A DNA stretch of 64,000 nt, from positions 139,296-203,295 of the forward strand of contig JAFIGD010000001.1 in the NCBI GenBank assembly GCA_020831625.1. Reading direction: 5' to 3'. Below are positions 30,258 to 46,661 of this stretch, piece after piece. The notes under the pieces are model-generated. The model saw only the letters and a program-made list of their open reading frames with translations. It was not told the DNA's origin and made no database searches. The stretch's first letter is position 1; each line of letters begins with the position of its first letter. Made by a program: the position numbers and the translations under genes. The DNA is from Verrucomicrobiota bacterium. Lineage in GTDB: Bacteria; Verrucomicrobiota; Kiritimatiellia; SS1-B-03-39; UBA6053.

Positions 30258-32936
30258 TTATCCCCCAATCTCCCGCTCCAAAACCTCCCACTCCTTGTTC
30301 GTCACCATCACAAACCCGCAGGTTCCCCCGCTCAGCTCCGCCCAAAGCCCGCCGATCATGCGGTCATCCTCCGCCGAGGCCATGCGGTCGCCGCCCTTGT
30401 ATTCCACCACCAGAATCCGCCCGTCCCTCAACTTGCAGACAAAATCGGGAAAAAAGCGGCCGTTGCCCTTCTGAAGAAAAAAGGAGCACCCCGGCCTGCC
30501 GACCAGATTGCGCACCCAGAATTCAACCCCGTCCTGACGATCCAGCCAACAGGCGCATTGGTATTCCTCTTTGGAATCAAACGCGCCGATGCGCGGATAG
30601 TAATGCTTGTCGAAACAATAATCCCCCCATTCCCCCCGGTCGTCCCGTGTGGGCGCATAGGCGTCCGGATGAAACTCAAAGCGGTACTCCGAGCCCACCC
30701 GGACCCGCTCATCCCGCCCCTCCCCGAACAAAAACTCCCCGCAGGCGTTCTGCGCCGCCGCCGCGCGCAGAGCGTGGACCCTCGCCTCCAGCAGATTCCG
30801 CAACTGAAACTTCTGCCGGTTCGCCTTCGCCAAATCATATCCGTCCTGAGACAACAGATCCCCCAGCCAGGCCGCCACAAAGGCCCGCTTGCTGGCGTGC
30901 GTGATGCCCGGATCATGCACCTGCTTGCAGAACCAGGCCGCCAGCCTGGCATCCGTCCAGTTTTCCGGCGTGTATGCAAGCCCCAGATCCCGGCTCAATT
31001 CCCGGCTGAACGAAGTCTTCACCCGCCCCGCATCCTCATCCACATCAATCAGCCCCGCCTCCTTCACCCTGGAGGTCAACGCCAGCGCCGAAAGCTGCGC
31101 TTCGGTCACATACGCCTCCGCCAAAGGCAGCTCCCACGGATAATCCACCGCCTCCGGCTCATCAAACAGCCGCAACTCCCCGTCGATCAACACCTCCATC
31201 TGAGGAACAAAAAACGCCTTCCCCCGCTCCGAAGGCGTGTGGAAAATCTGCACCGCCTCCGTGCGGCTGGCCACGCCGGCCCGGCTGATCGCCTCCCGGG
31301 TCGCATCCATCACCGCCCCCCGCGAAACCTCCTCCGTCTCCGCCTCCGTCAGCGGCGCATTCAGCACCAGCACCTTTTCTTTTTTGTTCCACACCACCTT
31401 CCGTTTCGTCTGCGCGGACAGCCCCGACACATCCAGCTCCTCGCCCAGCTTCACCTCCACCGGCGTGATGCGGATGCGGCCTTCGCCCCGCTTGAAATCC
31501 AGTTTCGCCTGCTCCGGGGACCGCGCCGAAACAAACTCCGACGCCTCCTGCCGGTTGAACCCCGAACTCTGCACCAGACATTCCCGCAACATCTCCGCCG
31601 TCTCCCCGAAATCCCGCGACACCACATACGCGTACGACCGGTTCAACGCCTCATGTTTCCGCTTCACCGCCTGCGGCTGACGCAGAATCCGCCCCAGCAA
31701 CTGCTCCACCGCCGTCGCGCTCTTCACCCCCGCCATGCTCACCAGCACATACGCGAACGAACAATCCCACCCCTCCGCCAGCGCCTTCTGCGTGATCACA
31801 TACTTCACCGGACACCGCTCCGAAAAAATTCCGCCCGGATACGCCGACTCCAGCGCCTCCAGCTCCCGCTCACTGCCCGTGGCCACCGCGATCTCCGCCT
31901 CCGGCACATTGTGATTCTCCATCAGCTCCCGCTTCACCCACTCGTAATCCCGCGTCTCTTTGTTTTTCGACTTCGGCTCCGACTGAATCAGCACCAGCGG
32001 ACGCAGATACGGAGCCCCCTCCCGATGCTCCCGCTCCGCCAGCACATTCAATTGATCCCGCTGATCCAAGGCCAGCGCCAGACAACGCTTATCCTCCGGC
32101 ACCGTCTCCAACTGAATCGGCAGCTTGATCATCTCCTCCCGCTTCAACTCCACCGCCGAAACCGAATGCAGCACATTGCTCGGCGTCCTCTCCATGTCCG
32201 GCGTCGCCGTCAGCTCCATGATCCCCAACGGCTTAAACTTCGCCAGCGTGTCAAAGGCCAGTTCCGTGCGGCTGTTGTGCGCCTCGTCCACAATCACAAA
32301 CGGACGCCGGAGCCGCAGCACATTCGCCAGCGAATACGGAACCGTGCCCCCATCCGCGTCTCTCAGCAACCCCGCCCGCTGCGAGTCCGTCAGCCCGTCA
32401 AACAAATGCTGCAGAGCCCCGTTGCTCTCATACACCTTGCGGATCTCCTCATTCTCCACCTGGAACGCCTGCCGCGTCCCCACAATCACCACCGTCCCCG
32501 TCTCCAGCATGGAGCGGTTCAACGCCTTCGCGTCATCCAAATCGATCACCGTCACCGGACCCGCCTCCCGCAGCGCCGCGTGATACGGATGATCCACACC
32601 GCACAAGCCAGCCAGCGTCTGCTCCCGAATCGCCTTCGACGGCACCAGCCACAAAATCACACTGTGCTCCGTATGCAGCAGCCGCTGATTCACCAGCGCC
32701 ACACTCTTCGCCGCCAAAAACGTCTTCCCGCCCCCCGTCGGCACCCGCAGACAAAAATACGGCATATCCTCTTCAAACCCGCGCAGCGGCGTGAACGCCG
32801 ACTTCTGCCCCCAAAGCGCCTTCGTGGTTTCCTGAAACGCATAATCCGCGTTCCCCATCCGCTGGCAGGTCCGGAAATACAGCTCAATGCTGCTGAGCGC
32901 ACTCGCTTGATATTCTTTTGGCGTGAAGGTGGGCAT
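30258..32936 (-). CDS. res: Type III restriction endonuclease Res subunit (SF2 helicase plus C-terminal PD-(D/E)xK nuclease)
   Basis: Start chosen at the ATG at 32936 (MPTFTPKEYQ); the ORF-track start at 32990 is TTG and lies in an AT-rich spacer. Motif I reads VPTGGGKTFLA, motif II reads FVIVDEAHNS, and the C-terminus reads PDFVCKLRDGRILVVEYKG. Confidence 0.8.
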   Translation of the reverse strand: MPTFTPKEYQASALSSIELYFRTCQRMGNADYAFQETTKALWGQKSAFTPLRGFEEDMPYFCLRVPTGGGKTFLAAKSVALVNQRLLHTEHSVILWLVPSKAIREQTLAGLCGVDHPYHAALREAGPVTVIDLDDAKALNRSMLETGTVVIVGTRQAFQVENEEIRKVYESNGALQHLFDGLTDSQRAGLLRDADGGTVPYSLANVLRLRRPFVIVDEAHNSRTELAFDTLAKFKPLGIMELTATPDMERTPSNVLHSVSAVELKREEMIKLPIQLETVPEDKRCLALALDQRDQLNVLAEREHREGAPYLRPLVLIQSEPKSKNKETRDYEWVKRELMENHNVPEAEIAVATGSERELEALESAYPGGIFSERCPVKYVITQKALAEGWDCSFAYVLVSMAGVKSATAVEQLLGRILRQPQAVKRKHEALNRSYAYVVSRDFGETAEMLRECLVQSSGFNRQEASEFVSARSPEQAKLDFKRGEGRIRITPVEVKLGEELDVSGLSAQTKRKVVWNKKEKVLVLNAPLTEAETEEVSRGAVMDATREAISRAGVASRTEAVQIFHTPSERGKAFFVPQMEVLIDGELRLFDEPEAVDYPWELPLAEAYVTEAQLSALALTSRVKEAGLIDVDEDAGRVKTSFSRELSRDLGLAYTPENWTDARLAAWFCKQVHDPGITHASKRAFVAAWLGDLLSQDGYDLAKANRQKFQLRNLLEARVHALRAAAAQNACGEFLFGEGRDERVRVGSEYRFEFHPDAYAPTRDDRGEWGDYCFDKHYYPRIGAFDSKEEYQCACWLDRQDGVEFWVRNLVGRPGCSFFLQKGNGRFFPDFVCKLRDGRILVVEYKGGDRMASAEDDRMIGGLWAELSGGTCGFVMVTNKEWEVLEREIGG

Positions 32937-33149: not shown

Positions 33150-35093
33150 TTACTTTTTCCTTACAGACAGGGTGTTTTTTCTTATGTTCAGTTTGGGCTT
33201 TATTGCAGCCCTGTAGGCTTGATCCACCCGATTAGGCTTGTCCGGATATTTCAGGAGCAACAGCCCATGCCGAACCATTGATGTTAAGAAACGTTGCCGC
33301 AAACCATCCGGATTTCGGTTTAACAGGGCAGCAATTTGGGATCTGGTCAACCAGTGTTCACTGCAAATACTTAAAATAATCCCTTCCATCTCCTTTGTTT
33401 CCAGTCGCTTGCAGGATCTGGAAACCTCCGCTAAATTATAGAGTTGCTCCAGTGTGCCTCCGTCCAAGTCTGGAAAAACAGTGGCAAGTTTGTTTATGAC
33501 CTCCTCTTGTATACGTACGGAGTGATCATCCTTACCTACGGAGTGATCGCCCTTACGTACGGAGTGATCGCCCTTACGTACGGAGTGATCGCCCTTATGT
33601 ACGGAGTGAATATCCTTGTGTGAGAAGTCAGTAACAGGCGTCAGTTTATACCTCGTCCATCTTCCCTGTCCTTGCTGTTGCAGAAACCCCTCACCTGTAA
33701 GCTTTTGTAGGAGCTGGGTCACATCAGATGCATGCAGCCGGGTAATTTGCCGCATGCGGGCGTTATCTACCCCCCCTTCTATATCCGCAGTCACCAAAAC
33801 TTCGACTTCTTGTTTCGTGCAACCGTCAAAGCGTTTGCCAAATTGCTTTTGCAGGCGGGATAAGGATTCCTCCGGTATGAGACTGACCATCGGCAATACC
33901 CACTCCACCCGATCAGGCTGTACAGTCTCCCGTACAGTTGGCGAGCGCCAGTGTTGTGATTCCCAACCACGGCGGATTTTATCAACACCGGATCCTGCCC
34001 GTTCCGCCAGACCCAACTGGGTAAACATTTTCTGCAAGGACTTATTACGGCACTCACTGACATTTCCACGCAGTAATTGATCCAATGAAATAAGCAACAT
34101 GCCAGGATTGGAGAAAACAAAACGATCCCGGTATTTCTCTATAACAATGCCGCCCTGTCCCTGATAATCGGCATGAATCAAGGCATTGACCAAAGCTTCA
34201 CGAATTGCCTCATGGACAACGCTCTCCCCTTTGCGAAAAAGATTCGCATCCAGTTGAAAAGGCAATTTAATGTCATCCGAAAGCCGCTGAACCACCCGCA
34301 AGTAAAACTGAAAAAGGTTCGGAGGCCATGTCCCGTCCATCATCAGCCTGTCCGTGTAACGGACATCAGGGTCATCGGAGAATTTTTCGCGGTAATCAAC
34401 ATGATAATCAGGAAGAGCCTCCGTTATCGTCTCCTCGCGCCCAAACATAAGAAGCCCGGCGATCGTCAGTCCTTCCTTCTCTGTTTTTCGATCCTGACGC
34501 CAACCGCCCAACTTTGATAACAGCCCTATATCATCTTCACTCAACCAGGGATGCGTTGGCTTATGTGAACCAAATCGCTGCCGGAACTGCTGTAAACTTT
34601 CCCGGTCAAGATCCTTGAGACCGAATCCTTCCAGAATTCGACTGTCTGCAGGTGCCTCCGCCCGGTCTGAAAGCATTCGCCCCACTTCCTGTTCCGTACA
34701 GTGATAGTCGCCTTCGTAATTCCTACGGTAGGTTCCTGTGAGCGGGTTTTGATCCAAATACACCGGACGTTGCTGTCGGGAGGCCCTGGGAATCCGAATC
34801 GCAAGAATATTCTTATCCTCAATCCGAACTTCCTCAACATCCACGTCCGTAAGCAGATTCAGGCTGACTTTGGACCGGTTATTTATCGTGTCCCAAAAAG
34901 ATTTCTTAAGTTTGGAAGTATTCTCAACCCCACATACATTTCCATTATCTTCAACACCCAACAGAACCACTCCACCATTGGAGTTTGCCAACGCACTGTA
35001 ACTCTCCCATAAACTTTTAGGCACACCGCCTTTGGCAGCCTTGAATTCCAAATCTTCACATTCCGTCCAATCAAGGCGACTGAGAAGGTCCAT
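33150..35093 (-). CDS. Schlafen-like ATP-binding protein, COG2865 type (AlbA_2 plus HATPase_c_4 plus C-terminal wHTH), inserted between mod and res
   Basis: Start chosen at the ATG at 35093 (MDLLSRLDWTECEDLEFKAAKGG). The HATPase_c_4 signature reads REALVNALIHADYQGQGGIVIEKYRDRFVFSNPG. It contains a 7-aa tandem repeat linker. It has lower G+C than res and the flanking mod segments. Confidence 0.7.
   Translation of the reverse strand: MDLLSRLDWTECEDLEFKAAKGGVPKSLWESYSALANSNGGVVLLGVEDNGNVCGVENTSKLKKSFWDTINNRSKVSLNLLTDVDVEEVRIEDKNILAIRIPRASRQQRPVYLDQNPLTGTYRRNYEGDYHCTEQEVGRMLSDRAEAPADSRILEGFGLKDLDRESLQQFRQRFGSHKPTHPWLSEDDIGLLSKLGGWRQDRKTEKEGLTIAGLLMFGREETITEALPDYHVDYREKFSDDPDVRYTDRLMMDGTWPPNLFQFYLRVVQRLSDDIKLPFQLDANLFRKGESVVHEAIREALVNALIHADYQGQGGIVIEKYRDRFVFSNPGMLLISLDQLLRGNVSECRNKSLQKMFTQLGLAERAGSGVDKIRRGWESQHWRSPTVRETVQPDRVEWVLPMVSLIPEESLSRLQKQFGKRFDGCTKQEVEVLVTADIEGGVDNARMRQITRLHASDVTQLLQKLTGEGFLQQQGQGRWTRYKLTPVTDFSHKDIHSVHKGDHSVRKGDHSVRKGDHSVGKDDHSVRIQEEVINKLATVFPDLDGGTLEQLYNLAEVSRSCKRLETKEMEGIILSICSEHWLTRSQIAALLNRNPDGLRQRFLTSMVRHGLLLLKYPDKPNRVDQAYRAAIKPKLNIRKNTLSVRKK
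33513..33617 (-). repeat. 21-bp tandem repeat, 5 copies, in frame within COG2865 gene 1; encodes (KGDHSVR)n
   Basis: Units ACGTACGGAGTGATCATCCTT / ACCTACGGAGTGATCGCCCTT x3 / ATGTACGGAGTGAATATCCTT were counted at 33513-33617. Confidence 0.85.
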
Positions 35094-35124
35094 TGGATTA
35101 AAATGAGTAGGCTTCGGCATCAGA

Positions 35125-36720
35125 CTACACCTCAATCGCATAAGGGGTTTGCTTGAACACGATTTGCTCCCGCTGCAGGGCGGAGGCCCCCAGGCGGCTG
35201 GCGGCCGCATATATCACCTTCGGCCCTTCATGAACCGGCAGCCCGTCCAGCACCGGACGCGTGAGAATATTGCCGCCCTGCGGACGCCGGTCACCCAGAA
35301 TCCCGTTGAACAGCAGATAAATCCCCCTTCCCTCATGCACCCCCAGCAACGGACTCGTCCCGTCGCCCGTGTACCCCAGACCCGTCTCCGAAAACCAGAC
35401 AAAATCCGCCAACTGCGCAAAGGTCACATCCTCCCGGATATCCCCGAACTCGTTGAACAGCGGCTCCCCGCTCAGACGGCAAAACTGAAATCCCCCGCCC
35501 AGCCCCGCCACCACCTTGCCCTTCGCGTCCGCATACCCCGCCGACACCCGCCGCACCCGCTCCGCCGTGATGTCCCGGGCAATGTTCTCCTCCATCTCCA
35601 CCAGAATGAATTTCCGCGTCCCCCCGTCCTCCGCATTCTGCTTCAACACCGCGTGCCCCGTCGTCCCGCTGCCGGCAAAACTATCCAAAATCATATCACC
35701 TTTGTCAGTCGCAATTTGAATAATGCGTTGAAGCAATCTAGTTGGTTTGGGGGTGTCAAAAGCTGTTTGTGTACCGAAAATCGCTCTAATCTCTTTCTTT
35801 GCCTCATCTGTATGACCTACTTCGTCATGCGGCCACCAAGTCCAAGGTACAAAACCCTCAACTTCTGACAAAAAGCGAATAATGCTTGGTTGTGAGTCGC
35901 CCTTCTTTCCGAAATAAATTCTACCCTCTGTCAGTAATTTTAGAAATTCACTTTCGATGGTTGACCAACAACGTCCTTCTGGCGGAATGATTTTTTTACC
36001 AGAAGGCGTTGTGATCTCGTACATTTGATTAGGCCTATAACCCTGTGCTGTCATGGGAATCCCACGCCATCGGCCTTTTGGATCATTATTTGGATTTTTG
36101 TAAACCTTGGCCTGTTTCTCGGTTAAAGGAACGAGATTCCTTGATTCTTGGAATTTTTTGGGGTTTGGAGCGTACACAAGCAAGTATTCATGTGCATCGC
36201 CGATGGAACCCCGATTTTCTCTAGAATAACGCTTTTGCCATGTATTACATGCAACGAATGAGGATAGCCCAAAGATTTCATCCATTAACGAGCGCAAGTT
36301 ATGGATCTCGGAATCATCCATTGAGATCCAAATAGATCCATCCGGCCGCAAAAACTGCTTCAGCAGCACCAGTCGCGGATACATCATGCAAAGCCACTTG
36401 TCATGACGGCAAAGATCCTCGGCCTCCTTGCCGACGGCTTCCCCCAGCCACTTTTTGATTTCCGGCGCGTTCGAGTTGTCGTTGTACACCCATCCCTCAT
36501 TCCCGGTGTTGTAGGGCGGATCGATGTAGATGCACTTCACCCGGCCCGCGTACTTCGGCAGCAGCGCCTTCAGCGCGTGCAGATTGTCCCCCTGCACAAT
36601 CAGGTTCCCGTCACGCCCCCCGCCCGCCGACAGCCCCGCATCCGGCTCCAGCAGCCGAAACGGCACCTCCTTGTGATGCCGAATCACCGCATCCTTCCCA
36701 ATCCAGTCCAGCGTCGGCAT
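35125..36720 (-). CDS. mod: Type III R-M Mod subunit (beta-class N6-adenine DNA methyltransferase) with a low-GC central target-recognition region
   Basis: Start at the ATG at 36720 (MPTLDWIGKD); the ORF-track start at 36738 is TTG. Motif IV reads IYIDPPYN (about aa 64-71) and motif I reads DSFAGSGTT (about aa 346-354). Nucleotides about 35690-36340 between them are visibly AT-rich. Confidence 0.85.
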   Translation of the reverse strand: MPTLDWIGKDAVIRHHKEVPFRLLEPDAGLSAGGGRDGNLIVQGDNLHALKALLPKYAGRVKCIYIDPPYNTGNEGWVYNDNSNAPEIKKWLGEAVGKEAEDLCRHDKWLCMMYPRLVLLKQFLRPDGSIWISMDDSEIHNLRSLMDEIFGLSSFVACNTWQKRYSRENRGSIGDAHEYLLVYAPNPKKFQESRNLVPLTEKQAKVYKNPNNDPKGRWRGIPMTAQGYRPNQMYEITTPSGKKIIPPEGRCWSTIESEFLKLLTEGRIYFGKKGDSQPSIIRFLSEVEGFVPWTWWPHDEVGHTDEAKKEIRAIFGTQTAFDTPKPTRLLQRIIQIATDKGDMILDSFAGSGTTGHAVLKQNAEDGGTRKFILVEMEENIARDITAERVRRVSAGYADAKGKVVAGLGGGFQFCRLSGEPLFNEFGDIREDVTFAQLADFVWFSETGLGYTGDGTSPLLGVHEGRGIYLLFNGILGDRRPQGGNILTRPVLDGLPVHEGPKVIYAAASRLGASALQREQIVFKQTPYAIEV

Positions 36721-36852
36721 CAGCAAGCCCCCCGGCAAACAGGAACCACCACAACATCACACCAAAAACGCATCAGATCACTCATTCCCCACTTCCTACC
36801 ACGCCCCCCGCCACCGGTCCAACCCCATTTTCAGATCACTCCGGGAAAAATG
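36660..36852. repeat. Copy A of an approximately 190-bp direct duplication covering the mod 5' end, start codon and upstream region
   Basis: Aligns, with substitutions and small indels, to 38847-39033. Both contain ...aatgccgaatcaccgcatc...cgtcggcatcag(c/t)aagccccccgg...aaaaacgcatca...ccacgccccc...ggtccaacc(c/t)cattttc...ccgggaaaaatg. Confidence 0.8.
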
Positions 36853-37372
36853 AGCCTGACTTCATTGTCACCCCTCATCCTCCGCACTTCCGTCATACAA
36901 AACCCGGCCGCTCAACTTGGAAACCATGATCAAACGGGAACTGCGAAGCATTGTACCGTCTTTTCCGTCATTCCAAGGCGAGAAAACGAACCACGATGGC
37001 TCAGAAGGCATATTATAGAGGCATATTTTTTCCGATAATGTACTCATGAGGGCTGGTGGAAGAGTGTAAACTCATTTTTATTCGCGGGTGTTTTGACAAA
37101 ACTGAATCATCCCCCTGCTGAAGTCAAGCAGGGAGGCACCTGAACAGAATCTAAAACACGCCGGAAAGGTATCAGGGTCCACCTGCCCGCAGTGCTGCGC
37201 ACAGCGTTGCAGGCGGGTCATCAGTGGTTTTCCCCAGTCGATCCGGTCGATCCCGGTAATCCCGTCAAAAATGCGCAGGACAGGCTTTGCTCCCTTCGCT
37301 CTCTTTGTTCTCTTTATCCTCTTCTGTAAAAATGATGAGATTTGCAGGTTCATCAGGTGAAAGGCCGCTTAA

Positions 37373-37431
37373 CTTGTTCAATTATTTTTCTTGTTCAATT
37401 ATTTTGAACAATGTATGATTCATGAACAATG
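37373..37431 (+). promoter_or_regulatory. Operator-like array of TTGTTCA / TGAACAA half-sites immediately upstream of, and overlapping, the start codon of CDS 37429
   Basis: TTGTTCAATTATTTT occurs twice (37375, 37392). There is a perfect inverted repeat TGTTCAA-ttatt-TTGAACA (37392-37410). TGAACAATG occurs twice (37405, 37423), the second containing the ATG. Confidence 0.4.
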
Positions 37432-38433
37432 AAACCTGAACACCAGTGGATTGCCCTGCGAAATGCCCTCATCGAACTTCCGGGGGAACCGATCTCGATT
37501 GACGAGAATCATTCTATTTTCACCTATCCCTCGGGCAAGGAAGTTGAATGGCGGTTTGGGGAAAAGCTAAGCACCCCATTTGTGGAGGGTTTGCTGAAGC
37601 ATAAGAGCAAAAAACCCTTGCTGCTGTTCTCACCTTACATCTCTCCCACCTTCGCGGAGCGGCTTCAGCGTAACGGGGTCTTTTTTGTGGATGAAACCGG
37701 GAATGCCTATCTTGAGTGGCCGGGGTATTATTTGTTTATCTCGCGGGACGTGCCAAAGAACTTGCGCCCCGGGAACAGTCAAAGAAAAGCGGGTAAGGAT
37801 TTTTCCCCCAGCGCACTCAAGCTGATCTATCTCTTTCTTACCGATACGAATAAGGGTGTCGGCGCGCGGGTGAATCATACCGTCCGACAATTAAATGCCG
37901 TCACGGGTATTTCCACCGGATCCATCAGCAACACCATGGACAGCCTGAAGGCGCAAAATTTTCTCGAAGAACGGGAGCCGGGAGTGCGGCGACTGGCCCA
38001 ACGGGAAAAATTGTTCGAACGCTGGGTGGAGGACTACACCCGCAAACTTCGGCCCAAACTGGTGGTGGAACACTACCGGCTCCCGCATCCCGGCTGGGCA
38101 AGTGAGCTGGTGCATACGGATGGCCCTGGCAAGTGGGGAGGCGAGGTGGCCGGGTCCAGACTCACCGGACATCTGGTGCCGGAAACCGTCACCCTTTACA
38201 CGGAAAATTTGCCGGCCAACTTTATTGTGAAAAATGACCTGCGCAAAGACCCGGCGGGGCGGGTGGAGATTCTGAGGCCCTTTACACCAATGGACCTGAC
38301 GGATCCAGCAGAGGCCTGTGTCCATCCTCTGCTCGTATATAGCGATCTCATGGCCTCCGAAATCGACCGCAACCTGGAAACCGCAAAACGGATTTATGAA
38401 AAATACCTTCGGCCTCTGGCAACATCCGATTGA
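37429..38433 (+). CDS. Low-GC hypothetical protein with a putative winged-helix segment (tentatively AbiEi-like antitoxin/regulator)
   Basis: 334 aa at about 50% G+C by eye. A candidate wHTH reads VRQLNAVTGISTGSISNTMDSLKAQNFLEE. It is preceded by the inverted-repeat operator. The family call is speculative. Confidence 0.4.
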   Translation: MKPEHQWIALRNALIELPGEPISIDENHSIFTYPSGKEVEWRFGEKLSTPFVEGLLKHKSKKPLLLFSPYISPTFAERLQRNGVFFVDETGNAYLEWPGYYLFISRDVPKNLRPGNSQRKAGKDFSPSALKLIYLFLTDTNKGVGARVNHTVRQLNAVTGISTGSISNTMDSLKAQNFLEEREPGVRRLAQREKLFERWVEDYTRKLRPKLVVEHYRLPHPGWASELVHTDGPGKWGGEVAGSRLTGHLVPETVTLYTENLPANFIVKNDLRKDPAGRVEILRPFTPMDLTDPAEACVHPLLVYSDLMASEIDRNLETAKRIYEKYLRPLATSD

Positions 38434-38836
38434 GAAAATAGTTTCCCTGCCCATGTTGGTCGTCCTGAAAATTGTGGCCGTGATGGACAGGGAACACGCC
38501 CGCCATAAAAAAGACGGTACCGATATTGCCTTCATTCTTGAAAACTACCTCAACGCGGGCAACGGTTTGCGTTTATTGGAGGGACCGAATGCGGATTTGA
38601 TGGCAGCTTGCGGCAATGATCTGGATGCCGCCACTGCGCGACTGTTGGGACGGGACATGGCCACGGAAATGCACCCGGACACCAGAAACCGCATTCGCAC
38701 ATATCTCGAGGAACAGGTGAAGAGTAGTGGGCGTTGTCACTTGGTTCATGGACTGATGGCTTCGTCCCGCTTCCCGACCTTCCCTGTTGCACGGGCTTGT
38801 CTGGGCAATGTACTTGCAGGGATAGAAAACATATGA
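38396..38836 (+). CDS. Low-GC small protein overlapping the previous CDS; KDGTDIAFIL motif reminiscent of the C-terminal region of AbiEii-type nucleotidyltransferases (tentative; possibly a frameshifted remnant)
   Basis: The ATG at 38396 lies inside the 3' end of the upstream CDS in another frame. The ORF track extends it to a GTG at 38318. It reads LKIVAVMDREHARHKKDGTDIAFILENYL. It is too short to contain an NTase fold. Confidence 0.3.
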   Translation: MKNTFGLWQHPIEKIVSLPMLVVLKIVAVMDREHARHKKDGTDIAFILENYLNAGNGLRLLEGPNADLMAACGNDLDAATARLLGRDMATEMHPDTRNRIRTYLEEQVKSSGRCHLVHGLMASSRFPTFPVARACLGNVLAGIENI

Positions 38837-38846
38837 TGAAAACCAA

Positions 38847-39033
38847 AACAGAACCTGCTGATAATGCCGAATCACCGCATCTTTGCCAATCCAGCGTCGG
38901 CATCAGTAAGCCCCCCGGAAAACCAGGCCCAATCCACCATCACAGCAAAAACGCATCACATCTCTCATCCCCCACTCCCTGCCACGCCCCCGCCCCCGGT
39001 CCAACCTCATTTTCTAACGACACCGGGAAAAAT
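38847..39033. repeat. Copy B of the mod 5' duplication, including a degenerate MPTLDW start-codon fragment (38858-38903, minus strand)
   Basis: Minus-strand atgccgacgctggattggcaaagatgcggtgattcggcat matches the mod start with a small deletion. It also drives the spurious ORF 38550..38903. Confidence 0.8.
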
Positions 39034-39059
39034 GTTGCTCCTTGGTAACAATTGTTACC

Positions 39060-39440
39060 GATTTAAGGAGTCCAACCCCATTTCCTGATCACTCCGGGAA
39101 AAATGAGTCGTTCCGACGCTCGAAAAAGGACCGGCATGATTTTCCGAACGTCGGAACGTTGGACTGGACCATTTCAAGGCTCGGAGGCAAAGCGGAAAAG
39201 CATCAGTGTCCACCTTCCCGCAGTGCTACGCGCAGCGTTGCAGGCGGGTCAGTGTCATCAGTGGTTTTCCCTCACCATACCTAAATCCCTTCCGCCCAGG
39301 CACAGAGGATAGGTATCAGTGTTCATCAGTGTCATCAGTGGTTTTTCTCCACCGCACCTTGCCCCTCCACCCAAGCACGGCGGACAGGTAGATATCCGTG
39401 TCCATCCGTGTCCATCCGTGGTTCTATTCTTCCGTGCCCC
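39060..39440. repeat. Mosaic of short interspersed repeat families X, Y, Z and W in non-coding DNA downstream of the 128-aa ORF
   Basis: X element: ccaaccccatttcctgatcactccgggaaaaatgag (also at about 36815 and about 39000). Y element: palindromic hairpin gttccgacgctcg...cgtcggaac (39098-39148; also 46662-46710 and 61985-62035). Z element: cccgcagtgctacgcgcagcgttgcaggcgggtca...tcagtggttttcc (also about 37180-37235). W elements: two units of cacRgMggaYaggtatcagtg...atcagtggttttt, the same family as the 52745-53455 array. Confidence 0.8.
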
Positions 39441-39448
39441 GGGTTCCC

Positions 39449-39835
39449 TCATCCTCCCGCATTCTCCGCGATCACCCGCTCCAGCTCCTCGATCATCTTC
39501 ACGAGGTCGCTCAAATAGATCGCCTCGGCCATGGGCTTGCCGTCGCTTTGATCCCGAAGCGGCACGAAAAATCCGTCCCGCCATTGCTTGCATTTCGCAA
39601 CCAGGGCGTCGTGCGCCAGCGCCCTCGCGGCGGTTTCGTCCAGCAGACGCATGATTTCCCGCAAAATGAATTGCGTCACCGCCCCTTTCTGCGCGAGCAG
39701 GGTGCGGATCTCGGGATCGAGGCCGGCGGAGCGCGCGTCGAGTTCCCGGTTGAGTTCCCCCAGAATTTCCGTGGCCGTGTCCAAGGCATGGCTGCTGGTT
39801 TTGGGTTTATTCGCCACTTTATTCGCCTTGGACAT
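39449..39835 (-). CDS. Small hypothetical protein (128 aa) overlapping the 3' end of the giant ATPase gene by 17 nt
   Basis: ATG at 39835. No motif was recognised. It is helical and charged. Confidence 0.45.
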   Translation of the reverse strand: MSKANKVANKPKTSSHALDTATEILGELNRELDARSAGLDPEIRTLLAQKGAVTQFILREIMRLLDETAARALAHDALVAKCKQWRDGFFVPLRDQSDGKPMAEAIYLSDLVKMIEELERVIAENAGG

Positions 39836-42800
39836 GACCGCCCCCCTGTCCGAGTTCGTCGATCAAAACGCGGTACGCCCCCCGGGCCCGCCGCAGACGT
39901 TCCTGCAAGTGCTCGGGATCGCTTTCCCCTTCGTGATGCAGACTCTCCTGCAGGCGCTCGAACTGCTGCTCCAGCAACAGCGACAGCTTGGAGGCCCCCG
40001 CCGGTTTTTCCGCTTTCGCCGCCACTTCCGGGGGCCGCGCTCTGGCGAGAATATCCTCCAGCCGGTCCAGGGTGTCCGCGCCGAGAACCGTTTCCACCGG
40101 ACCCGCGGGCGCTTTGCCGCCCACGCCCTGCTTCAGCACGTCGCGAATTTCGTGCAGACCCTCGCCCAGTCCGGAAAGCTGGGCCACCGCCTGCCCCACC
40201 CGGTCGTCCTCTCCGGCGCCGCGCAACAACTGATTGCGGGCGTAGGAGCGTTTGATTTCCGCCCACCGGGCCTGTTCTTCTTCGGTGGCCAAGTCGAGGA
40301 TCAACCTGAATTTCAGCAGGTTGGCCTCCGCGCCGGTCGTGAGCGTCTGGGCTTCGTTGGTGTATTCGGAATAAATCGTGGTTTCCAGTTCCCGCTCGTT
40401 CATCACCGCCTCCACCTTCTCGGCGAGACGGTTCATGTTGCGGTAGGACCCCTGCAGCTTGAAAGCCGGTTCGGTGCGGAACTCGTCCGCCTGCCCGGCG
40501 CTGCGGATGTATTCCTCGTTCACGCGCAGGACCACGTCCCGGATGCGAATCATCTTTTCCATCACCGAAATAATTTCCTGCAGCTCGCCCGCGGAATAGT
40601 TGCCTTCCAGCTCCACCCCTTCGCGGGACCCGGTTTCGGCGATGCGGATGACCGAATAAATGTCTTTCTTGCTGCCGGAGGACAGCCGGTTCAGGGCCGG
40701 ATTCGAGGTGAGCGCGTTTTCGAGGAAGCTGAGCTTGAACACGTCGCCGTTGTCCCCGAGAATGTCCCCGAGGTTATAGGTGTCGGCGCGGTTGGCGAGC
40801 ATGTCGGGGATACGGAATTTCTCCCCGCTTTCGGTGTAGGGGTTCCCGGCCATGACCACAGACACTTTTTTGCCGCGCAGGTCGTAGGTTTTCGTGTTCC
40901 CTTTGTACACACCCTCGATTTTGCGCTGCGCATCGCACAGCGAAATGAATTTCTGCAGAAACTCGGGATTGCAGTGCTGGATGTCATCGAGATAAATCAT
41001 CACGTTGTCGCCCATTTCCAACGCCAGCCCCAGCTTGTGCAGCTCCTCGCGGGCGGCGGCGTTGGGCGCTTCACTCGGATCGAGCGATGTGACGTGATGC
41101 CCGATGGCGGGTCCGTTGATTTTCATAAACACCACGCCCAATCGGTTGGCGACGTATTCCATCAGCGTGGTTTTCCCGTACCCGGGCGGGGAAATGAGCA
41201 TCAACATGCCGCTGCGGTCAGTACGGGTGTTGTGACCCGCCACCCCGATCTGCTTGGCGAGGTTGTCGCCGATCAGCGGCAGGTACACGCGGTCGATGAG
41301 CCGGTTGCGCACAAAGGAGGTCATCACCCTGGGCTTGAATTCGTCCAGACGCATTTCCTTGCGGGTCCGCTCCAGAAATTCCTTTTTCATGCGGCCGAAG
41401 GCCTCGAAACGGGGCACGGATTCGCGCACAAAGCGGTCCAGCCGCAACACGAATTCGTTGTACCGCAGTTCCAACCGACCCTCCTGCAATCGGCGGTGCG
41501 CCCCGCGCAGTCCCCCGATCTCCCGGCGGGTCCCCAGTTCGGAAACGCGGGCGGGCGCATAGGCCTCGGCGAACACCAGCGCCGCCGCCTCGTCCAGTCC
41601 TTCGGCCCATTCCCCGTTGGGCTTGCTTTCCAGATAACCGCGCATCCATTCACGGATCAGGCCATATTCCGCCACCGGACGGCTTCGGACCTTTTCCCGC
41701 GCCTCGTCGAACGCTTTTTGACCCGCGAGCTTCTTGAGATGCGCCTGAAACGCCTTGATCAGCGCCCCGGCTTCGGGGCTGATGGGATGCTCGCCCTCCC
41801 CGGTTTCCACGTCGAACAGATACGTCGCAGCAGTCTCCGCCAGCCGGGGATCAAACCAGGGGACGGATTCCGCGAACGCGGCGATGCGGTCCCGCAATTC
41901 GCTCAGCGCGTCGTCCTGACGCCGCTGCTGACGGAAGACTTTGTTGGAGGCGGCCATGCCCTGCAAACGGGCCTGCATGATCTCAAAGGCCTCGTCCTGT
42001 TTGAACCCGGTCCAGAACACCAGCGCCAGCGCCCGGGCGGAGGTGTGCGCCCGCAGCAGACCCAGCGAAAAATGCATTTCCAAAAGCGCCTTGAGGATTT
42101 TCCCGGCATCCTCGTCATGCACCCCCTTTTGATAGCCCTCGGCATAGCGGGGCGCCATAAAGGTCTGCACCTTCTGAATCAGCGCGGGCTCCTCCAGCTC
42201 CGCGTCCTCGGGTCGGGCATCCGCCAAGAGGCGATATGCCAGATATTCGGCCCGATAGACCTCCGCATCCTCTGAAATCAGATCCTGGGACCACACGGAG
42301 CGGGTTTCGAGAAACGCGGAATCGGTGATGGCTTCGAAAAAATTGGTGCCGGTCAGGTGCATCATCATCTGATCGCCGCGCGGCACGATGGTGAGGTCCA
42401 GCGCCTGGGTGTTCACCGAGAACTGATGCCGCCCGAATTTGATGATGTTTTCCCCGCCCACGAACAACTCGGATCGGTCATGCAACTGCCGCACCCCCTC
42501 CTCGCGGGCGCTCTTGAGCTTGGTCTCAATGTCCCCGGCTTTCACCGGATCATCCAGTTCCTTGAGCTGATCCACAATCCCGCGCAGCTTCTCAATCATC
42601 AAATCGGAGGCGAAGTAGCCGTTGATCTCCTCCACGGTTTTCATCGCGTCCACGCGACCCTTGACGCTGTTGAGAATGCGTTCCGCGCTGCGCTGCAGCG
42701 TGTCGGCCCGTTTGTTGCGCGCCTCCACCAGCGACAGACGGCGGGTTTCGAAGGCGTTGTACACTTCCTCCCGCTTTTCGGAGAGCTTGGCCACATAGTC

Positions 42801-45017
42801 GTCGAAATCGGAGAATTTCCCCTCCAGTTCCTCCAACTGAATCATCACCCGTCCCAAATAGCTCTCGCATTTTTCCGGGGAATCACAGACATCCAGATAA
42901 TTAATCACCGCCTGGGACAGCAGCTTCATTTGCGAGGCGAACTCGGCTGAGCCCTCCACCTGGGCCAAATCCCGGATCTTGTTGGTCAGCGCCGCCCGGG
43001 CCTGATTGATCCCGGAAAACAGCGCCGAAATTCCGTCAATGATCCGGGTGCGCTGGGTGGCGTCGTCGATTTTCAGATTGCTGACGATTTCGATGAGCAT
43101 TTCCAGTTCGCCGCTGACCGCCTCGATTTCCTCCTTGAGTTCCTCCCCGTCCTTCACCTTGTCGAGTTTGGCGATGCGCGGTTCCAGGCCTTCAATCTTC
43201 TTCGCGTACGGGGTCATGGCATCGTCGCGCAGCAGGAAATCCACGCATCGCCGGGCCTGACGCTCCGTATGCTCGCGCACCGTTTTTTCCAGCTCATCCA
43301 CCCTCGCCCCGTCCATATAGCGCAGCTCGCGCAGGGAAATCACCTTGCCCCGCAAAGCCCGCAGGCCGGAGAGGGTGTCCACGTGGCCGTTGATGTCGTC
43401 GTGACGCCGCAGACGGATTTCGTTCAGAAGATCCCGGGTTTCTTTTTCCGCCTCCTTGAGCCGCGACGCGGCCGCGTTTTGCAACTGCACCACCTTCTCG
43501 TACTCGTCAATGGCGGCGGCGGCGGCCTCTTTGATTTTCTCCAGCGGCTCGCCCGGATCAAACGCAGCAGACTCGCGGATCCAGAAAAAACTGTCCAGCA
43601 AATCGGTGGATTGACGTGAAACATCCACATACAGATTCGCGTAATTGTCCTCGCGGTTGAGCAGACCCAGCAGTGTCTGACAGCCCGCCATACAGCGGAC
43701 AATATCGCGGTTGCCGATTTTAAAGAGCATCGAATCCTTGTGTTCGGTCACCGCCTCCGCCGTGGCCGAATACGGGGTTTGCCAGACCTGCACCACATGC
43801 GATTTGGTGTGCTCTTCCTGGGCCTTGAAATACATCAGCTCCCCGTCTTTAAAGAGACTGTAGCCGTGGCAGTCGATGGGGGTCTCCACGGTCTGGCTGA
43901 TCAAATTGTAGGAGAGCAGTCCATAGGTCCCGTTTTCACGGTTGTAGAAAATAAACAGGGTGTCCTCACCGTTCGGCGAGGCCACGCGCCGCTCGAAAAG
44001 CATATCGCTGTTGGCGCTGTCGAACTGTTTGTATTCACCGGTCTGGAGATAATAGCCGTTGGGGAAAATAATCCCGTGGTCCTCGGGCAGCAGCACGCAG
44101 GCTCCGGCGATGGCGTCCATGCGCCGCGCCTCGCGGACCTTTTCGCTGTACACGAAATAGCGGAATTTGCTTTCGCGGTAGGGTTTGATTTTCATCAAAA
44201 TCAAATTGCCCACGGAGGCGAAATGAAATTCCGCGTCGTCCAGGGTTTGATCCGGATCCTCCACCGCCTCGGTATAAATCCCCTCGCCGCTGGTCGTGTT
44301 GTCCTCGATCTTGATGGTCAAATTGCCGCCCATGGTTTCCACGAACACCCGGTCCTGGAACGAAATGTGGGGGAATTCGCCGCTGCGCTGCATGTCGCGG
44401 GTGGCCCGCACCCACTCGAACTCGTGCTGGGACGGAAACCGGTATTCATGATCGCTGCGGTTGTCCACATACGTGAACGACCCGTCATCCCCGCGCAGCC
44501 ACTTAAAACACTTCACATCCTTCACGTCCTTGCCCACACGGAACACCATGAAAATATGAGGCCCCACCCGCATGAACTTGGAGAAACGCGTATTCTTGTA
44601 GTATTTGTACAGCTCCGAAAAATCGCGGGCAAACCCCGGATCGTTTAGCAGATCCAGCGTGTCTTCGGTCAGTTTGTGATCCTCAAAGCGATAGACCGCG
44701 AACACATCCTCCGGGGTCATCTCCCTGCGGAGGCCCAGTTGCACATTATAGCCGAAGAGCATTTTCGAGCCCACCGCCACCATGTCGCGCGGCACGCAGT
44801 TGTTGGCCGTCAGCACCCGCTCCGTGCCCACCAGTTTTGGTTCCACGGAGCCGAACACATCACGGCGGGCCGCATTCAGCTTGTCCACCCGCTCCTGCAG
44901 CGCCTCGCCATGCCCCCGCAGACGGCGGCGGATGATCTCATACGCGCCCCCCTCAAACACCGGAGCCTCCGCGCCCGCTTTTTGTTCGTCAGTAACGTTG
45001 GATTTGGAATCAGTCAT
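39819..45017 (-). CDS. Giant (1732 aa) protein with a C-terminal AAA+ ATPase domain (MoxR/McrB-like arrangement); N-terminal roughly 1270 aa unknown and partly coiled-coil
   Basis: Walker A reads LISPPGYGKTTLMEY (about aa 1273-1287, nt about 41160-41200). Walker B reads NVMIYLDDIQH. The sensor region reads VSVVMAGNPYTESGEKFRIPDMLANRADTY (compare MoxR ATQNP...PEAQLDRF and McrB GTMNtaDrs...ALrRRF). It starts 29 nt after COG2865 gene 2. Confidence 0.7.
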   Translation of the reverse strand: MTDSKSNVTDEQKAGAEAPVFEGGAYEIIRRRLRGHGEALQERVDKLNAARRDVFGSVEPKLVGTERVLTANNCVPRDMVAVGSKMLFGYNVQLGLRREMTPEDVFAVYRFEDHKLTEDTLDLLNDPGFARDFSELYKYYKNTRFSKFMRVGPHIFMVFRVGKDVKDVKCFKWLRGDDGSFTYVDNRSDHEYRFPSQHEFEWVRATRDMQRSGEFPHISFQDRVFVETMGGNLTIKIEDNTTSGEGIYTEAVEDPDQTLDDAEFHFASVGNLILMKIKPYRESKFRYFVYSEKVREARRMDAIAGACVLLPEDHGIIFPNGYYLQTGEYKQFDSANSDMLFERRVASPNGEDTLFIFYNRENGTYGLLSYNLISQTVETPIDCHGYSLFKDGELMYFKAQEEHTKSHVVQVWQTPYSATAEAVTEHKDSMLFKIGNRDIVRCMAGCQTLLGLLNREDNYANLYVDVSRQSTDLLDSFFWIRESAAFDPGEPLEKIKEAAAAAIDEYEKVVQLQNAAASRLKEAEKETRDLLNEIRLRRHDDINGHVDTLSGLRALRGKVISLRELRYMDGARVDELEKTVREHTERQARRCVDFLLRDDAMTPYAKKIEGLEPRIAKLDKVKDGEELKEEIEAVSGELEMLIEIVSNLKIDDATQRTRIIDGISALFSGINQARAALTNKIRDLAQVEGSAEFASQMKLLSQAVINYLDVCDSPEKCESYLGRVMIQLEELEGKFSDFDDYVAKLSEKREEVYNAFETRRLSLVEARNKRADTLQRSAERILNSVKGRVDAMKTVEEINGYFASDLMIEKLRGIVDQLKELDDPVKAGDIETKLKSAREEGVRQLHDRSELFVGGENIIKFGRHQFSVNTQALDLTIVPRGDQMMMHLTGTNFFEAITDSAFLETRSVWSQDLISEDAEVYRAEYLAYRLLADARPEDAELEEPALIQKVQTFMAPRYAEGYQKGVHDEDAGKILKALLEMHFSLGLLRAHTSARALALVFWTGFKQDEAFEIMQARLQGMAASNKVFRQQRRQDDALSELRDRIAAFAESVPWFDPRLAETAATYLFDVETGEGEHPISPEAGALIKAFQAHLKKLAGQKAFDEAREKVRSRPVAEYGLIREWMRGYLESKPNGEWAEGLDEAAALVFAEAYAPARVSELGTRREIGGLRGAHRRLQEGRLELRYNEFVLRLDRFVRESVPRFEAFGRMKKEFLERTRKEMRLDEFKPRVMTSFVRNRLIDRVYLPLIGDNLAKQIGVAGHNTRTDRSGMLMLISPPGYGKTTLMEYVANRLGVVFMKINGPAIGHHVTSLDPSEAPNAAAREELHKLGLALEMGDNVMIYLDDIQHCNPEFLQKFISLCDAQRKIEGVYKGNTKTYDLRGKKVSVVMAGNPYTESGEKFRIPDMLANRADTYNLGDILGDNGDVFKLSFLENALTSNPALNRLSSGSKKDIYSVIRIAETGSREGVELEGNYSAGELQEIISVMEKMIRIRDVVLRVNEEYIRSAGQADEFRTEPAFKLQGSYRNMNRLAEKVEAVMNERELETTIYSEYTNEAQTLTTGAEANLLKFRLILDLATEEEQARWAEIKRSYARNQLLRGAGEDDRVGQAVAQLSGLGEGLHEIRDVLKQGVGGKAPAGPVETVLGADTLDRLEDILARARPPEVAAKAEKPAGASKLSLLLEQQFERLQESLHHEGESDPEHLQERLRRARGAYRVLIDELGQGGGHVQGE

Positions 45018-46555: not shown

Positions 46556-46661
46556 TTGAGGTACTTGGGTGAAGGATTTTCCTAAAGAACAAGAATGCAC
46601 ATTATTCCAAAAAAATAAGCGTTCACGTAATCATAAATCAGCAATTCGTTTCTTAAAAGTG

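What the first reader, a model, noticed from the sequence alone, without database searches (positions are those of the whole stretch)
35690..36340. Low-GC cassette exactly spanning the target-recognition region of the Type III mod gene
The mod gene is GC-rich at both ends (motif IV DPPY region and motif I FxGxG region). Nucleotides about 35690-36340, encoding about aa 110-345 between those motifs, are conspicuously AT-rich. That interval is the target recognition domain (TRD) in beta-class Type III Mod proteins. The pattern is the classic footprint of TRD replacement by horizontal recombination, which would change methylation and restriction specificity.
Basis: partly seen in the sequence, partly recalled or inferred. 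Interest (0 to 1): 0.6.

Follow-up and report, generated by a model that had tools for sequence, protein, structure and literature searches.

The report
Swapped recognition cassette in Type III methylase
A restriction-modification methylase gene in a Verrucomicrobia genome has had its DNA-recognition middle replaced by foreign, AT-rich DNA; this is a clean example of a way of changing restriction specificity that is already well documented in other bacteria.

Summary
It is a textbook case, not a new phenomenon.

- **GC dip.** Window 35680-36350 lies inside mod (35125-36720, minus strand). Its GC is 0.43, against 0.61 and 0.64 in the rest of the gene. GC at four-fold sites is 0.32 against 0.91 (Fisher p = 3e-22). 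Host genes and res sit at 0.8-0.92.
- **Mosaic.** The three closest relatives match the two ends at about 90% nt (91-96% aa). They match the cassette at only 54-59% nt (48-55% aa). Both transitions are sharp.
- **Cassette relatives.** The cassette's own relatives reach at most 81% aa and 74% nt, and sit in other backbones, mostly proteobacterial. No donor was found.

1. The cassette (aa ~125-350) is larger than the TRD (aa ~199-294). It also carries methyltransferase motifs V-VIII and X, and ends inside motif I.
2. A low-GC middle is not special to this gene. In 81 of 85 family members the TRD is AT-richer than the flanks.
3. The recognised motif is unknown.

En-bloc TRD exchange at conserved motifs, and a low-GC recognition domain, are published for Haemophilus/Neisseria modA and Helicobacter pylori mod. 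Interest is low.

The parts
35125..36720 (-). mod gene, 531 aa from the ATG. It is intact and in frame across both junctions.
   Evidence: Pfam N6_N4_Mtase, E = 4e-41. PADLOC MTase_III PDLC03644, E = 6e-202 over 1-530 of 542. 100% identical to an NCBI MAG Verrucomicrobia protein.
36351..36720 (-). 5' backbone segment (aa 1-~124) with the N-terminal domain and motif IV DPPY. Composition is host-like.
   Evidence: GC 0.61 and four-fold GC 0.90. 93-96% aa identity to L001/L003/L004, and about 90% nt identity.
35680..36350 (-). Imported low-GC cassette (aa ~125-350). It holds MTase motifs V-VIII, the TRD, and motif X.
   Evidence: GC 0.43 and four-fold GC 0.28-0.38. 54-59% nt identity to the backbone relatives. 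Best matches elsewhere are 80-81% aa and 74% nt.
35839..36126 (-). Approximate TRD proper (aa ~199-294).
   Evidence: HMMER alignment to EcoP15I Mod (4ZCF) brackets an unaligned stretch of window aa 190-299. EcoP15I TRD is aa 263-384 (PMC4490356). The boundaries are approximate.
36340..36354 (-). 5' crossover zone, in the codons for LLKQF|LRPDG.
   Evidence: Identity to L001/L003/L004 is continuous up to the TTT codon at 36354-36352, then breaks down. The two-breakpoint fit gives aa 123-124.
35677..35688 (-). 3' crossover zone, inside motif I (DSF|AGSGTT).
   Evidence: Identity to the backbone relatives resumes at GCC GGC AGC GGG. The fit gives aa 346-351.
35125..35679 (-). 3' backbone segment (aa ~348-531): motifs I-III and the C-terminal domain. 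Composition is host-like.
   Evidence: GC 0.64 and four-fold GC 0.91. 91-93% aa identity to L001/L003/L004.
30258..32936 (-). res gene, 892 aa. It is not mosaic.
   Evidence: Pfam ResIII. PADLOC REase_III PDLC03650, E = 3e-119, full length. Conserved helicase motifs and a C-terminal PD...EYK motif. About 85% nt identity to L001/L003 res as a single full-length match, with no internal low-identity block. Four-fold GC 0.92.
33150..35120 (-). SLFN_AlbA_2 + HATPase_c_4 gene (656 aa) in the mod-res slot. It is a second low-GC insert in the operon, starting 4 nt after the mod stop.
   Evidence: Pfam hits. GC 0.49 and four-fold GC 0.54. L001 lacks it. L003 has a gene of the same architecture that is only 28% identical over 107 aa.

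Best explanation
A resident, host-adapted Type III mod gene had its central block replaced by the corresponding block of a foreign mod allele.

- **What was replaced.** About 670 bp (aa ~125-350) were exchanged. The block holds the target recognition domain plus the adjoining methyltransferase motifs V-VIII and X.
- **How.** The likely route is a double crossover or gene conversion. The crossovers fell in stretches that encode sequence conserved among Type III Mods. The 5' crossover is in the codons for LLKQF|LRPDG. The 3' crossover is inside motif I, DSF|AGSGTT.
- **Source.** The incoming DNA came from an AT-richer background and has not ameliorated. The donor is unsampled.
- **Consequence.** In Type III enzymes the TRD of one Mod protomer makes the base-specific contacts, and Res has no recognition of its own. 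The swap should therefore have changed both the methylated motif and the restricted motif.

Shown: the compositional break, the mosaic identity, the junction positions, the intact reading frame and motifs, and the same kind of exchange throughout the family. Inferred: the recombination mechanism, the direction of transfer, and the change of specificity.
For: - **Composition.** Four-fold GC is 0.32 in the cassette. It is 0.91 in the flanks, 0.92 in res, and 0.8-0.9 in host genes.
- **Mosaic.** Identity to L001/L003/L004 is 0.89-0.91 nt outside the cassette and 0.54-0.59 inside. Transitions occur within about 10-30 nt. Res matches L001/L003 at about 85% nt as one full-length alignment.
- **Reciprocal pattern.** The window's middle type occurs at 59-68% aa in Mods whose ends are only 32-50% identical to the window's (L048, L053, L056, L063, L064, L083, L086).
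- **Family-wide exchange.** Across 85 genes, backbone and middle identities are uncorrelated (Spearman 0.03). In 164 of 223 pairs with backbone identity of at least 80%, the middle is below 60%.
- **Recurrent boundaries.** Fitted breakpoints in 80 pairs cluster at about aa 129-150 and about aa 335-394.
- **Rapid turnover.** The four closest backbones carry middles that are only 49-69% identical to one another.
- **Independent assemblies.** Three assemblies carry the same mod: L173 is nucleotide-identical to the window across it and L172 shows no difference within it.
- **TRD role.** The EcoP15I structure shows that the TRD reads the DNA (PMC4490356).
- **Published precedent.** The same mechanism is described for H. 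pylori Type III mod (PMC3467074) and for modA (PMC3311624).
Against: - No donor or near-identical cassette was found. The best matches are 80-81% aa and 74% nt in the 5.8-billion-protein set, GTDB genomes, JGI metagenomes, viral contigs and plasmids. Source and timing are therefore unknown.
- Low GC in the middle is a general property of this family. On its own it does not date or prove this particular event.
- The recognised motif was not measured for any allele. Divergent TRDs could in principle read the same sequence.
Confidence: 0.88

Rival explanations
1. In-situ divergence without transfer. Under this reading, diversifying selection on the recognition region and relaxed codon usage made the middle divergent and AT-rich within this lineage.
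For: The TRD is AT-richer than the flanks at four-fold sites in 81 of 85 family members. Some intrinsic or selective bias on this region therefore cannot be excluded.
Against: - Four-fold GC of 0.32 against 0.91 within one gene, with steps a few codons wide, is far beyond what a difference in selection would give.
- The middle is more similar (65-81% aa) to Mods from other phyla than to its own backbone clade (48-55%).
- Backbone and middle identities are uncorrelated across the family.
Confidence: 0.05
2. Reverse direction. Under this reading, the AT-rich middle is the older resident part, and the two GC-rich ends (and res) were overwritten by sequence from the Verrucomicrobia backbone clade.
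For: A mosaic alone does not give direction. The neighbouring SLFN gene and the 33-39 kb region are also lower in GC than the rest of the contig.
Against: - It needs two separate conversion tracts in mod plus replacement of res. A single tract explains the alternative.
- Flanks and res match host codon usage, with four-fold GC of 0.91-0.92 against 0.8-0.9 for host genes.
- Four related backbones each carry a different middle, so the middle is the part that turns over.
Confidence: 0.04
3. Metagenome assembly chimera. Under this reading, the assembler joined reads of two organisms' mod genes at conserved motifs.
For: The window comes from a MAG, and the junctions lie in conserved motif-coding sequence.
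Against: - An independent Logan assembly of SRR13748697 (reported in 5 samples) is 100% identical over 4455 bp spanning both junctions.
- The NCBI MAG has the same gene.
- At the junctions the backbone and the nearest cassette-type genes differ at many third positions. I infer that long exact k-mers shared between them are unlikely.
Confidence: 0.02
4. A programmed local switch. Under this reading, the gene is a phase-variable or shufflon-type mod that exchanges its TRD with silent copies nearby.
For: A degenerate second copy of the mod promoter and first ~22 codons lies 2.2 kb upstream, at 38843-39034.
Against: - tblastn with 87 Mod sequences finds no other Mod or TRD coding fragment in the 64 kb.
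- There is no simple-sequence repeat in or before mod.
- No recombinase was seen among the genes next to the locus that were scanned.
- The upstream remnant carries no TRD.
Confidence: 0.01

Closest known systems
TRD movement in Helicobacter pylori Type III mod genes (Furuta and Kobayashi 2012, PMC3467074)
   Same: Both involve beta-class Type III mod genes. In both, the TRD block is exchanged by recombination at short similar sequences encoding conserved MTase motifs (IV-VIII on the 5' side, X-III on the 3' side). In both, TRD and non-TRD phylogenies are incongruent, and TRD homologs occur in distant bacteria.
   Different: This case is in an environmental Verrucomicrobia MAG. The exchange is allelic and at a single locus, and movement between paralogous loci in one genome was not seen. 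The compositional contrast is much stronger.
modA DNA-recognition-domain alleles of Haemophilus influenzae and pathogenic Neisseria (Gawthorne et al. 2012, PMC3311624)
   Same: Both have conserved 5' and 3' regions flanking a variable central domain that is transferred en bloc. In both, the recognition domain has lower GC than the flanks, which the authors read as evidence of horizontal origin.
   Different: modA is phase-variable through simple repeats and acts as a phasevarion regulator. This mod has no such repeats. It sits with an intact res, so it looks like a plain defence system.
EcoP15I (Type III R-M prototype, PDB 4ZCF)
   Same: The domain order is the same: NTD, MTase (IV-VIII), TRD, MTase (X, I-III), CTD. 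DPPY and FxGxG motifs are present, and Res is an SF2 helicase with a nuclease motif.
   Different: Only the MTase parts align by sequence, and the TRD does not. Res is too divergent for phmmer to find EcoP15I Res. Mod is shorter, at 531 aa against 644.

Membership tests
Type III restriction-modification system (Mod + Res) | Mod is an N6/N4 amino-methyltransferase with beta-class motif order: IV (DPPY), then the TRD, then X and I (FxGxG). | tested here: met
   DPPY is at aa 67-70 and FAGSG at aa 348-352, with TPKPTRL (motif X) before motif I. Pfam N6_N4_Mtase, E = 4e-41. PADLOC MTase_III, E = 6e-202, full length. Best PDB hits are Type III Mods 6K0W, 4ZCF and 7DSU.
Type III restriction-modification system (Mod + Res) | A co-oriented res gene encodes an SF2 helicase-like ATPase. 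| tested here: met
   Pfam ResIII. PADLOC REase_III, E = 3e-119 over 6-880 of 898. Conserved PTGGGKT, DEAHN, TATP and GRxxR motifs.
Type III restriction-modification system (Mod + Res) | Res has a C-terminal PD-(D/E)XK endonuclease motif. | tested here: met
   FFPDF...VVEYKG near the C-terminus has its P, D, E, Y, K and G residues at 90% or higher conservation across 32 Res homologs. Catalysis was not tested.
Type III restriction-modification system (Mod + Res) | mod and res are adjacent in one operon. | tested here: inconclusive
   They have the same strand and order, but a 1.97-kb SLFN_AlbA_2/HATPase_c_4 gene lies between them. Most relatives have mod and res abutting. Co-transcription was not tested.
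Allelic TRD-cassette exchange in Type III mod (modA / H. pylori type) | Conserved 5' and 3' regions with a divergent central region among close relatives. | tested here: met
   Identity to L001/L003/L004 is 0.89-0.91 nt outside and 0.54-0.59 nt inside.
Allelic TRD-cassette exchange in Type III mod (modA / H. pylori type) | TRD and backbone relationships are incongruent. | tested here: met
   Spearman 0.03 over 3570 pairs. There are 164 discordant pairs and 25 middle types.
Allelic TRD-cassette exchange in Type III mod (modA / H. pylori type) | Different alleles recognise different DNA motifs. | not testable with these tools
   This needs methylome data or expression with SMRT/nanopore sequencing. 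REBASE was not available.
Phasevarion (phase-variable mod) | A simple-sequence repeat tract in mod or its promoter causes ON/OFF switching. | tested here: not met
   Tandem Repeats Finder reports only a 2.5-copy 9-nt match inside mod and no simple-sequence (1-6 nt unit) repeat tract in 35125-36900.

The most novel reading that the evidence does not exclude
The AT-rich middle may be a signature of the whole Mod family. In 81 of 85 genes from more than ten phyla, the TRD has lower four-fold-site GC than its own flanks (mean 0.47 against 0.745). TRD composition tracks the host only weakly (slope 0.46).

This would mean that recognition cassettes form a pan-phylum, AT-leaning pool that turns over faster than amelioration. 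They would be largely decoupled from the backbone and from res. The mod-res junction would be a second exchangeable slot in the same operon, here holding an AlbA_2/HATPase_c_4 gene.
Probability: 0.4. Interest if true: 0.4.

Novelty: new member of a known kind. Interest (0 to 1): 0.22.

Why it matters
This is a very clean natural example of specificity change by cassette replacement in a Type III system outside the host-adapted pathogens where it was described. It has base-level junctions and an uneroded compositional scar.

Practical uses:
- The closely related backbones with different cassettes (window, L001, L003, L004) form a ready-made panel for mapping TRD sequence to recognition motif.
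- The recurrent junctions at aa ~125-150 and ~335-350 mark where TRDs can be swapped for engineering.

It does not change the understanding of R-M evolution.

Tried and rejected
- **Donor search.** I searched for the cassette in five places: the 5.8-billion-protein set with the full-length protein and the cassette alone, GTDB genomes, JGI metagenomes, viral contigs, and PLSDB plasmids by protein and DNA. Nothing exceeded 81% aa over the whole cassette (up to 84% over partial matches) or 74% nt. The cassette-only protein search returned mostly short proteins and omitted full-length Mods, so it is not exhaustive.
- **Assembly chimera.** Rejected, because independent assemblies are identical.
- **Phase variation or a local silent-cassette shufflon.** Rejected. 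There are no simple repeats in mod and no other TRD fragment in the window.
- **Amino-acid composition as the cause of the dip.** Rejected by the four-fold-site analysis.
- **GC-biased conversion raising the flanks.** Not needed, because the flanks equal host gene composition.
- **EcoP15I Res by sequence.** No PDB hit. I used the PADLOC model and the motifs instead.
- **Structure prediction.** Not run. The HMMER mapping to 4ZCF and the published domain limits were enough to place the TRD.

Full report
**What is at the coordinates**

The finding lies inside a 531-aa ORF on the minus strand (35125-36720 from the ATG).
- It matches Pfam N6_N4_Mtase (E = 4e-41).
- It matches a PADLOC Type III methyltransferase model end to end (E = 6e-202).
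- Its best solved relatives are Type III Mods 6K0W, EcoP15I 4ZCF and Mbo45V 7DSU.
- DPPY (aa 67-70) precedes motif X (TPKPTRL) and motif I (FAGSG, aa 348-352). This is the beta-class order.

Downstream on the same strand is a SLFN_AlbA_2/HATPase_c_4 gene (33150-35120). After it comes res (30258-32936).
- Res has a Pfam ResIII hit and a full-length PADLOC REase_III hit (E = 3e-119).
- It has conserved helicase motifs and a conserved C-terminal PD...EYK motif.

The window corresponds to contig JAIUMJ010000005.1 of GCA_022565545.1, labelled 'MAG: Verrucomicrobia bacterium'.

**The observation**

GC in 200-bp windows is 0.60-0.65 at both ends of mod and 0.42-0.46 across 35700-36400.
- For the refined interval 35680-36350, GC is 0.426. 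The two flanks are 0.608 and 0.636.
- Only 1.4% of 670-bp windows in the 64 kb are as AT-rich.
- The step at about 35675 is among the four largest in the window.

The contrast lies in codon choice, not amino-acid content.
- GC3 is 0.38 against 0.80.
- Four-fold-site GC is 0.32 against 0.91 (Fisher p = 3e-22).
- Res (0.92) and the long ORFs elsewhere in the window (mostly 0.7-0.9) resemble the mod flanks.

**The mosaic**

A search of 5.8 billion proteins gave many full-length homologs at 68-78% identity. Splitting the alignment into three segments showed that this average hides two patterns.
- P0068, P0042, P0052 and P0107 are 89-96% identical in the N-terminal 125 aa and 86-93% identical in the C-terminal 185 aa. 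They are only 49-55% identical in the middle.
- The proteins that match the middle best (about 80%) are ordinary elsewhere, at about 80% in the N-terminal segment and about 70% in the C-terminal segment.

At the DNA level (loci L001, L003, L004):

| Comparison with the window | nt identity outside aa 125-349 | nt identity inside | Fisher p |
|---|---|---|---|
| L001 | 0.906 | 0.542 | 8e-63 |
| L003 | 0.891 | 0.568 | 1e-49 |
| L004 | 0.892 | 0.587 | 5e-45 |
| L005, L007, L010 (middle-type relatives) | about 0.69 | about 0.67 | not significant |

Res shows no such break. It matches L001 and L003 at about 85% nt as a single full-length alignment.

**Junctions**

Codon-aligned sequences show continuous identity to the backbone clade up to the TTT codon of LLKQF (window about 36352). 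Identity resumes at GCC GGC AGC GGG of motif I (about 35677). A two-breakpoint fit gives aa 123-124 and aa 346-351.

**How this maps to the TRD**

EcoP15I Mod has its MTase domain at aa 62-262 and 390-516, and its TRD at aa 263-384 (PMC4490356). HMMER aligns window aa 4-189 to EcoP15I 58-253, and window aa 300-379 to EcoP15I 390-472.
- The TRD proper is therefore about aa 199-294.
- The exchanged block is larger. It adds about 70 residues of MTase core on the N-terminal side (motifs V-VIII) and about 50 on the C-terminal side (motif X up to motif I).
- 'Exactly spanning the TRD' is thus an overstatement. The crossovers sit in conserved motif-coding DNA, which is where homology for recombination exists.

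**Not an artefact**

A Logan assembly of SRR13748697 (4455 bp, reported in 5 samples) is 100% identical to window 33568-38022. The NCBI MAG differs from the window only outside mod.

**Family context**

I collected 80 further loci from named genomes and analysed 85 Mod genes.
- Backbone and middle identities are uncorrelated (Spearman 0.03 over 3570 pairs).
- In 164 of 223 pairs with backbone identity of at least 80%, the middle is below 60%.
- Single linkage at 60% gives 25 middle types.
- The window's type has 22 members. They come from Beta-, Gamma- and Alphaproteobacteria, Verrucomicrobiota, Desulfovibrio, Leptospirales and Thermodesulfobacteriota.
- Some members share 59-68% of the middle with the window but only 32-50% of the ends.
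- Fitted breakpoints in 80 discordant pairs cluster at aa 129-150 (left) and aa 335-394 (right). The same module boundaries are therefore reused.
- The four closest backbones (window, L001, L003, L004) carry middles that are only 49-69% identical to one another.

**A correction to the 'low GC means recent import' logic**

L001, L003 and L004 also have AT-rich middles (GC3 0.37-0.46) between GC-rich ends.

Across the family, four-fold GC of the TRD core is below that of the flanks in 81 of 85 genes. The means are 0.47 and 0.745 (Wilcoxon p = 2e-15). The regression slope of TRD on flank is only 0.46.

The dip is therefore a family trait. It is consistent with cassettes drawn from a shared AT-leaning pool that turns over faster than amelioration. 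It would not prove a swap without the mosaic evidence. The window's contrast (0.43 in GC3) is near the top of the range, whose maximum is 0.46.

**Donor**

None was found.
- The best whole-cassette match is 80-81% aa, or 84% over a partial match, and 74% nt.
- Viral contigs reach 68% aa.
- Large Acinetobacter plasmids, many typed as mobilizable by PLSDB, carry the same type at 65% aa and 68% nt.

**Mechanism**

The most likely event is homologous recombination or gene conversion between the resident mod and incoming DNA carrying a different allele. The crossovers would lie in motif-coding stretches.

In EcoP15I, the TRD of one Mod protomer reads the bases while the other protomer methylates. 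DNA recognition is assigned to the Mod TRD (PMC4490356; PMC3467074). A new TRD should therefore change methylation and restriction specificity together. This last step is inference. No motif was measured.

**Comparison with the literature**

The same mechanism is published for H. pylori Type III mod genes. That work describes recombination at 8-117 bp of similar sequence flanking the TRD, incongruent trees, and TRD homologs in distant bacteria (PMC3467074).

It is also published for modA of Haemophilus and Neisseria. That work describes en-bloc transfer of the recognition domain, and lower GC in that domain, which the authors read as evidence of horizontal transfer (PMC3311624).

Unlike modA, this gene has no simple-sequence repeats. 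The window holds no silent TRD copies.

**Verdict**

This is a new, very clean member of a known kind, and interest is low. The family-wide AT bias of the cassette and the variable mod-res slot are modest leads.

Noticed in passing
window 33512-33609 (inside the gene at 33150-35120, minus strand): There is an in-frame 21-nt tandem repeat of 4.7 copies, encoding HSV(R/H)KGD heptads, in the SLFN_AlbA_2/HATPase_c_4 gene. The NCBI MAG version of the same contig lacks exactly one unit (window 33577-33597). Copy number therefore varies between assemblies of this population.
   Followed up: partly
window 33150-35120; loci L001-L086 between mod and res: The mod-res junction is a variable accessory-gene slot across the family.
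- Most loci have mod and res abutting.
- Many loci carry an insert of 0.55-0.7 kb. By eye, the ORFs look like P-loop (zeta-toxin-like) or ORF6N-like genes.
- The window and L003 carry SLFN_AlbA_2-type genes (Pfam); the L037 gene is 66% identical to L003's, while the window and L003 genes are only 28% identical over 107 aa.
- By eye, L082 looks RhuM-like and L044 looks like a transposase.

   Followed up: partly
window 38843-39034 and 39193-39282, versus 36655-36852 and 37162-37245: There is a degenerate direct duplication (84-90% identity, about 2.18 kb apart) of the mod upstream region plus the first ~22 codons of mod. The upstream copy is frameshifted. The two copies bracket an AbiEi_2 gene (37429-38433, plus strand) and a 146-aa ORF (38396-38836). 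This may be the scar of an earlier rearrangement or insertion at the mod 5' end.
   Followed up: partly
window 45047-46630 (minus strand): A second low-GC gene (GC 0.46) has SLFN_AlbA_2 + HATPase_c_4 + Fic-like_C domains. It is 26% identical to the gene in the mod-res slot. Large GC steps lie near both of its ends, at about 44980 and 46665.
   Followed up: no
window 39819-45017 (minus strand): A 1732-aa protein has DUF3686 ('ATPase involved in DNA repair'), DUF7902 and AAA domains. It has no PADLOC hit. It sits between the R-M locus and the second Schlafen-like gene.
   Followed up: no
plasmid hits H1-H20 (Acinetobacter plasmids of about 260-355 kb): Mod genes with the same middle type as the window (65% aa, 68% nt) are carried on large Acinetobacter plasmids, many typed as mobilizable by PLSDB. 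This TRD type therefore also circulates on mobile elements.
   Followed up: no
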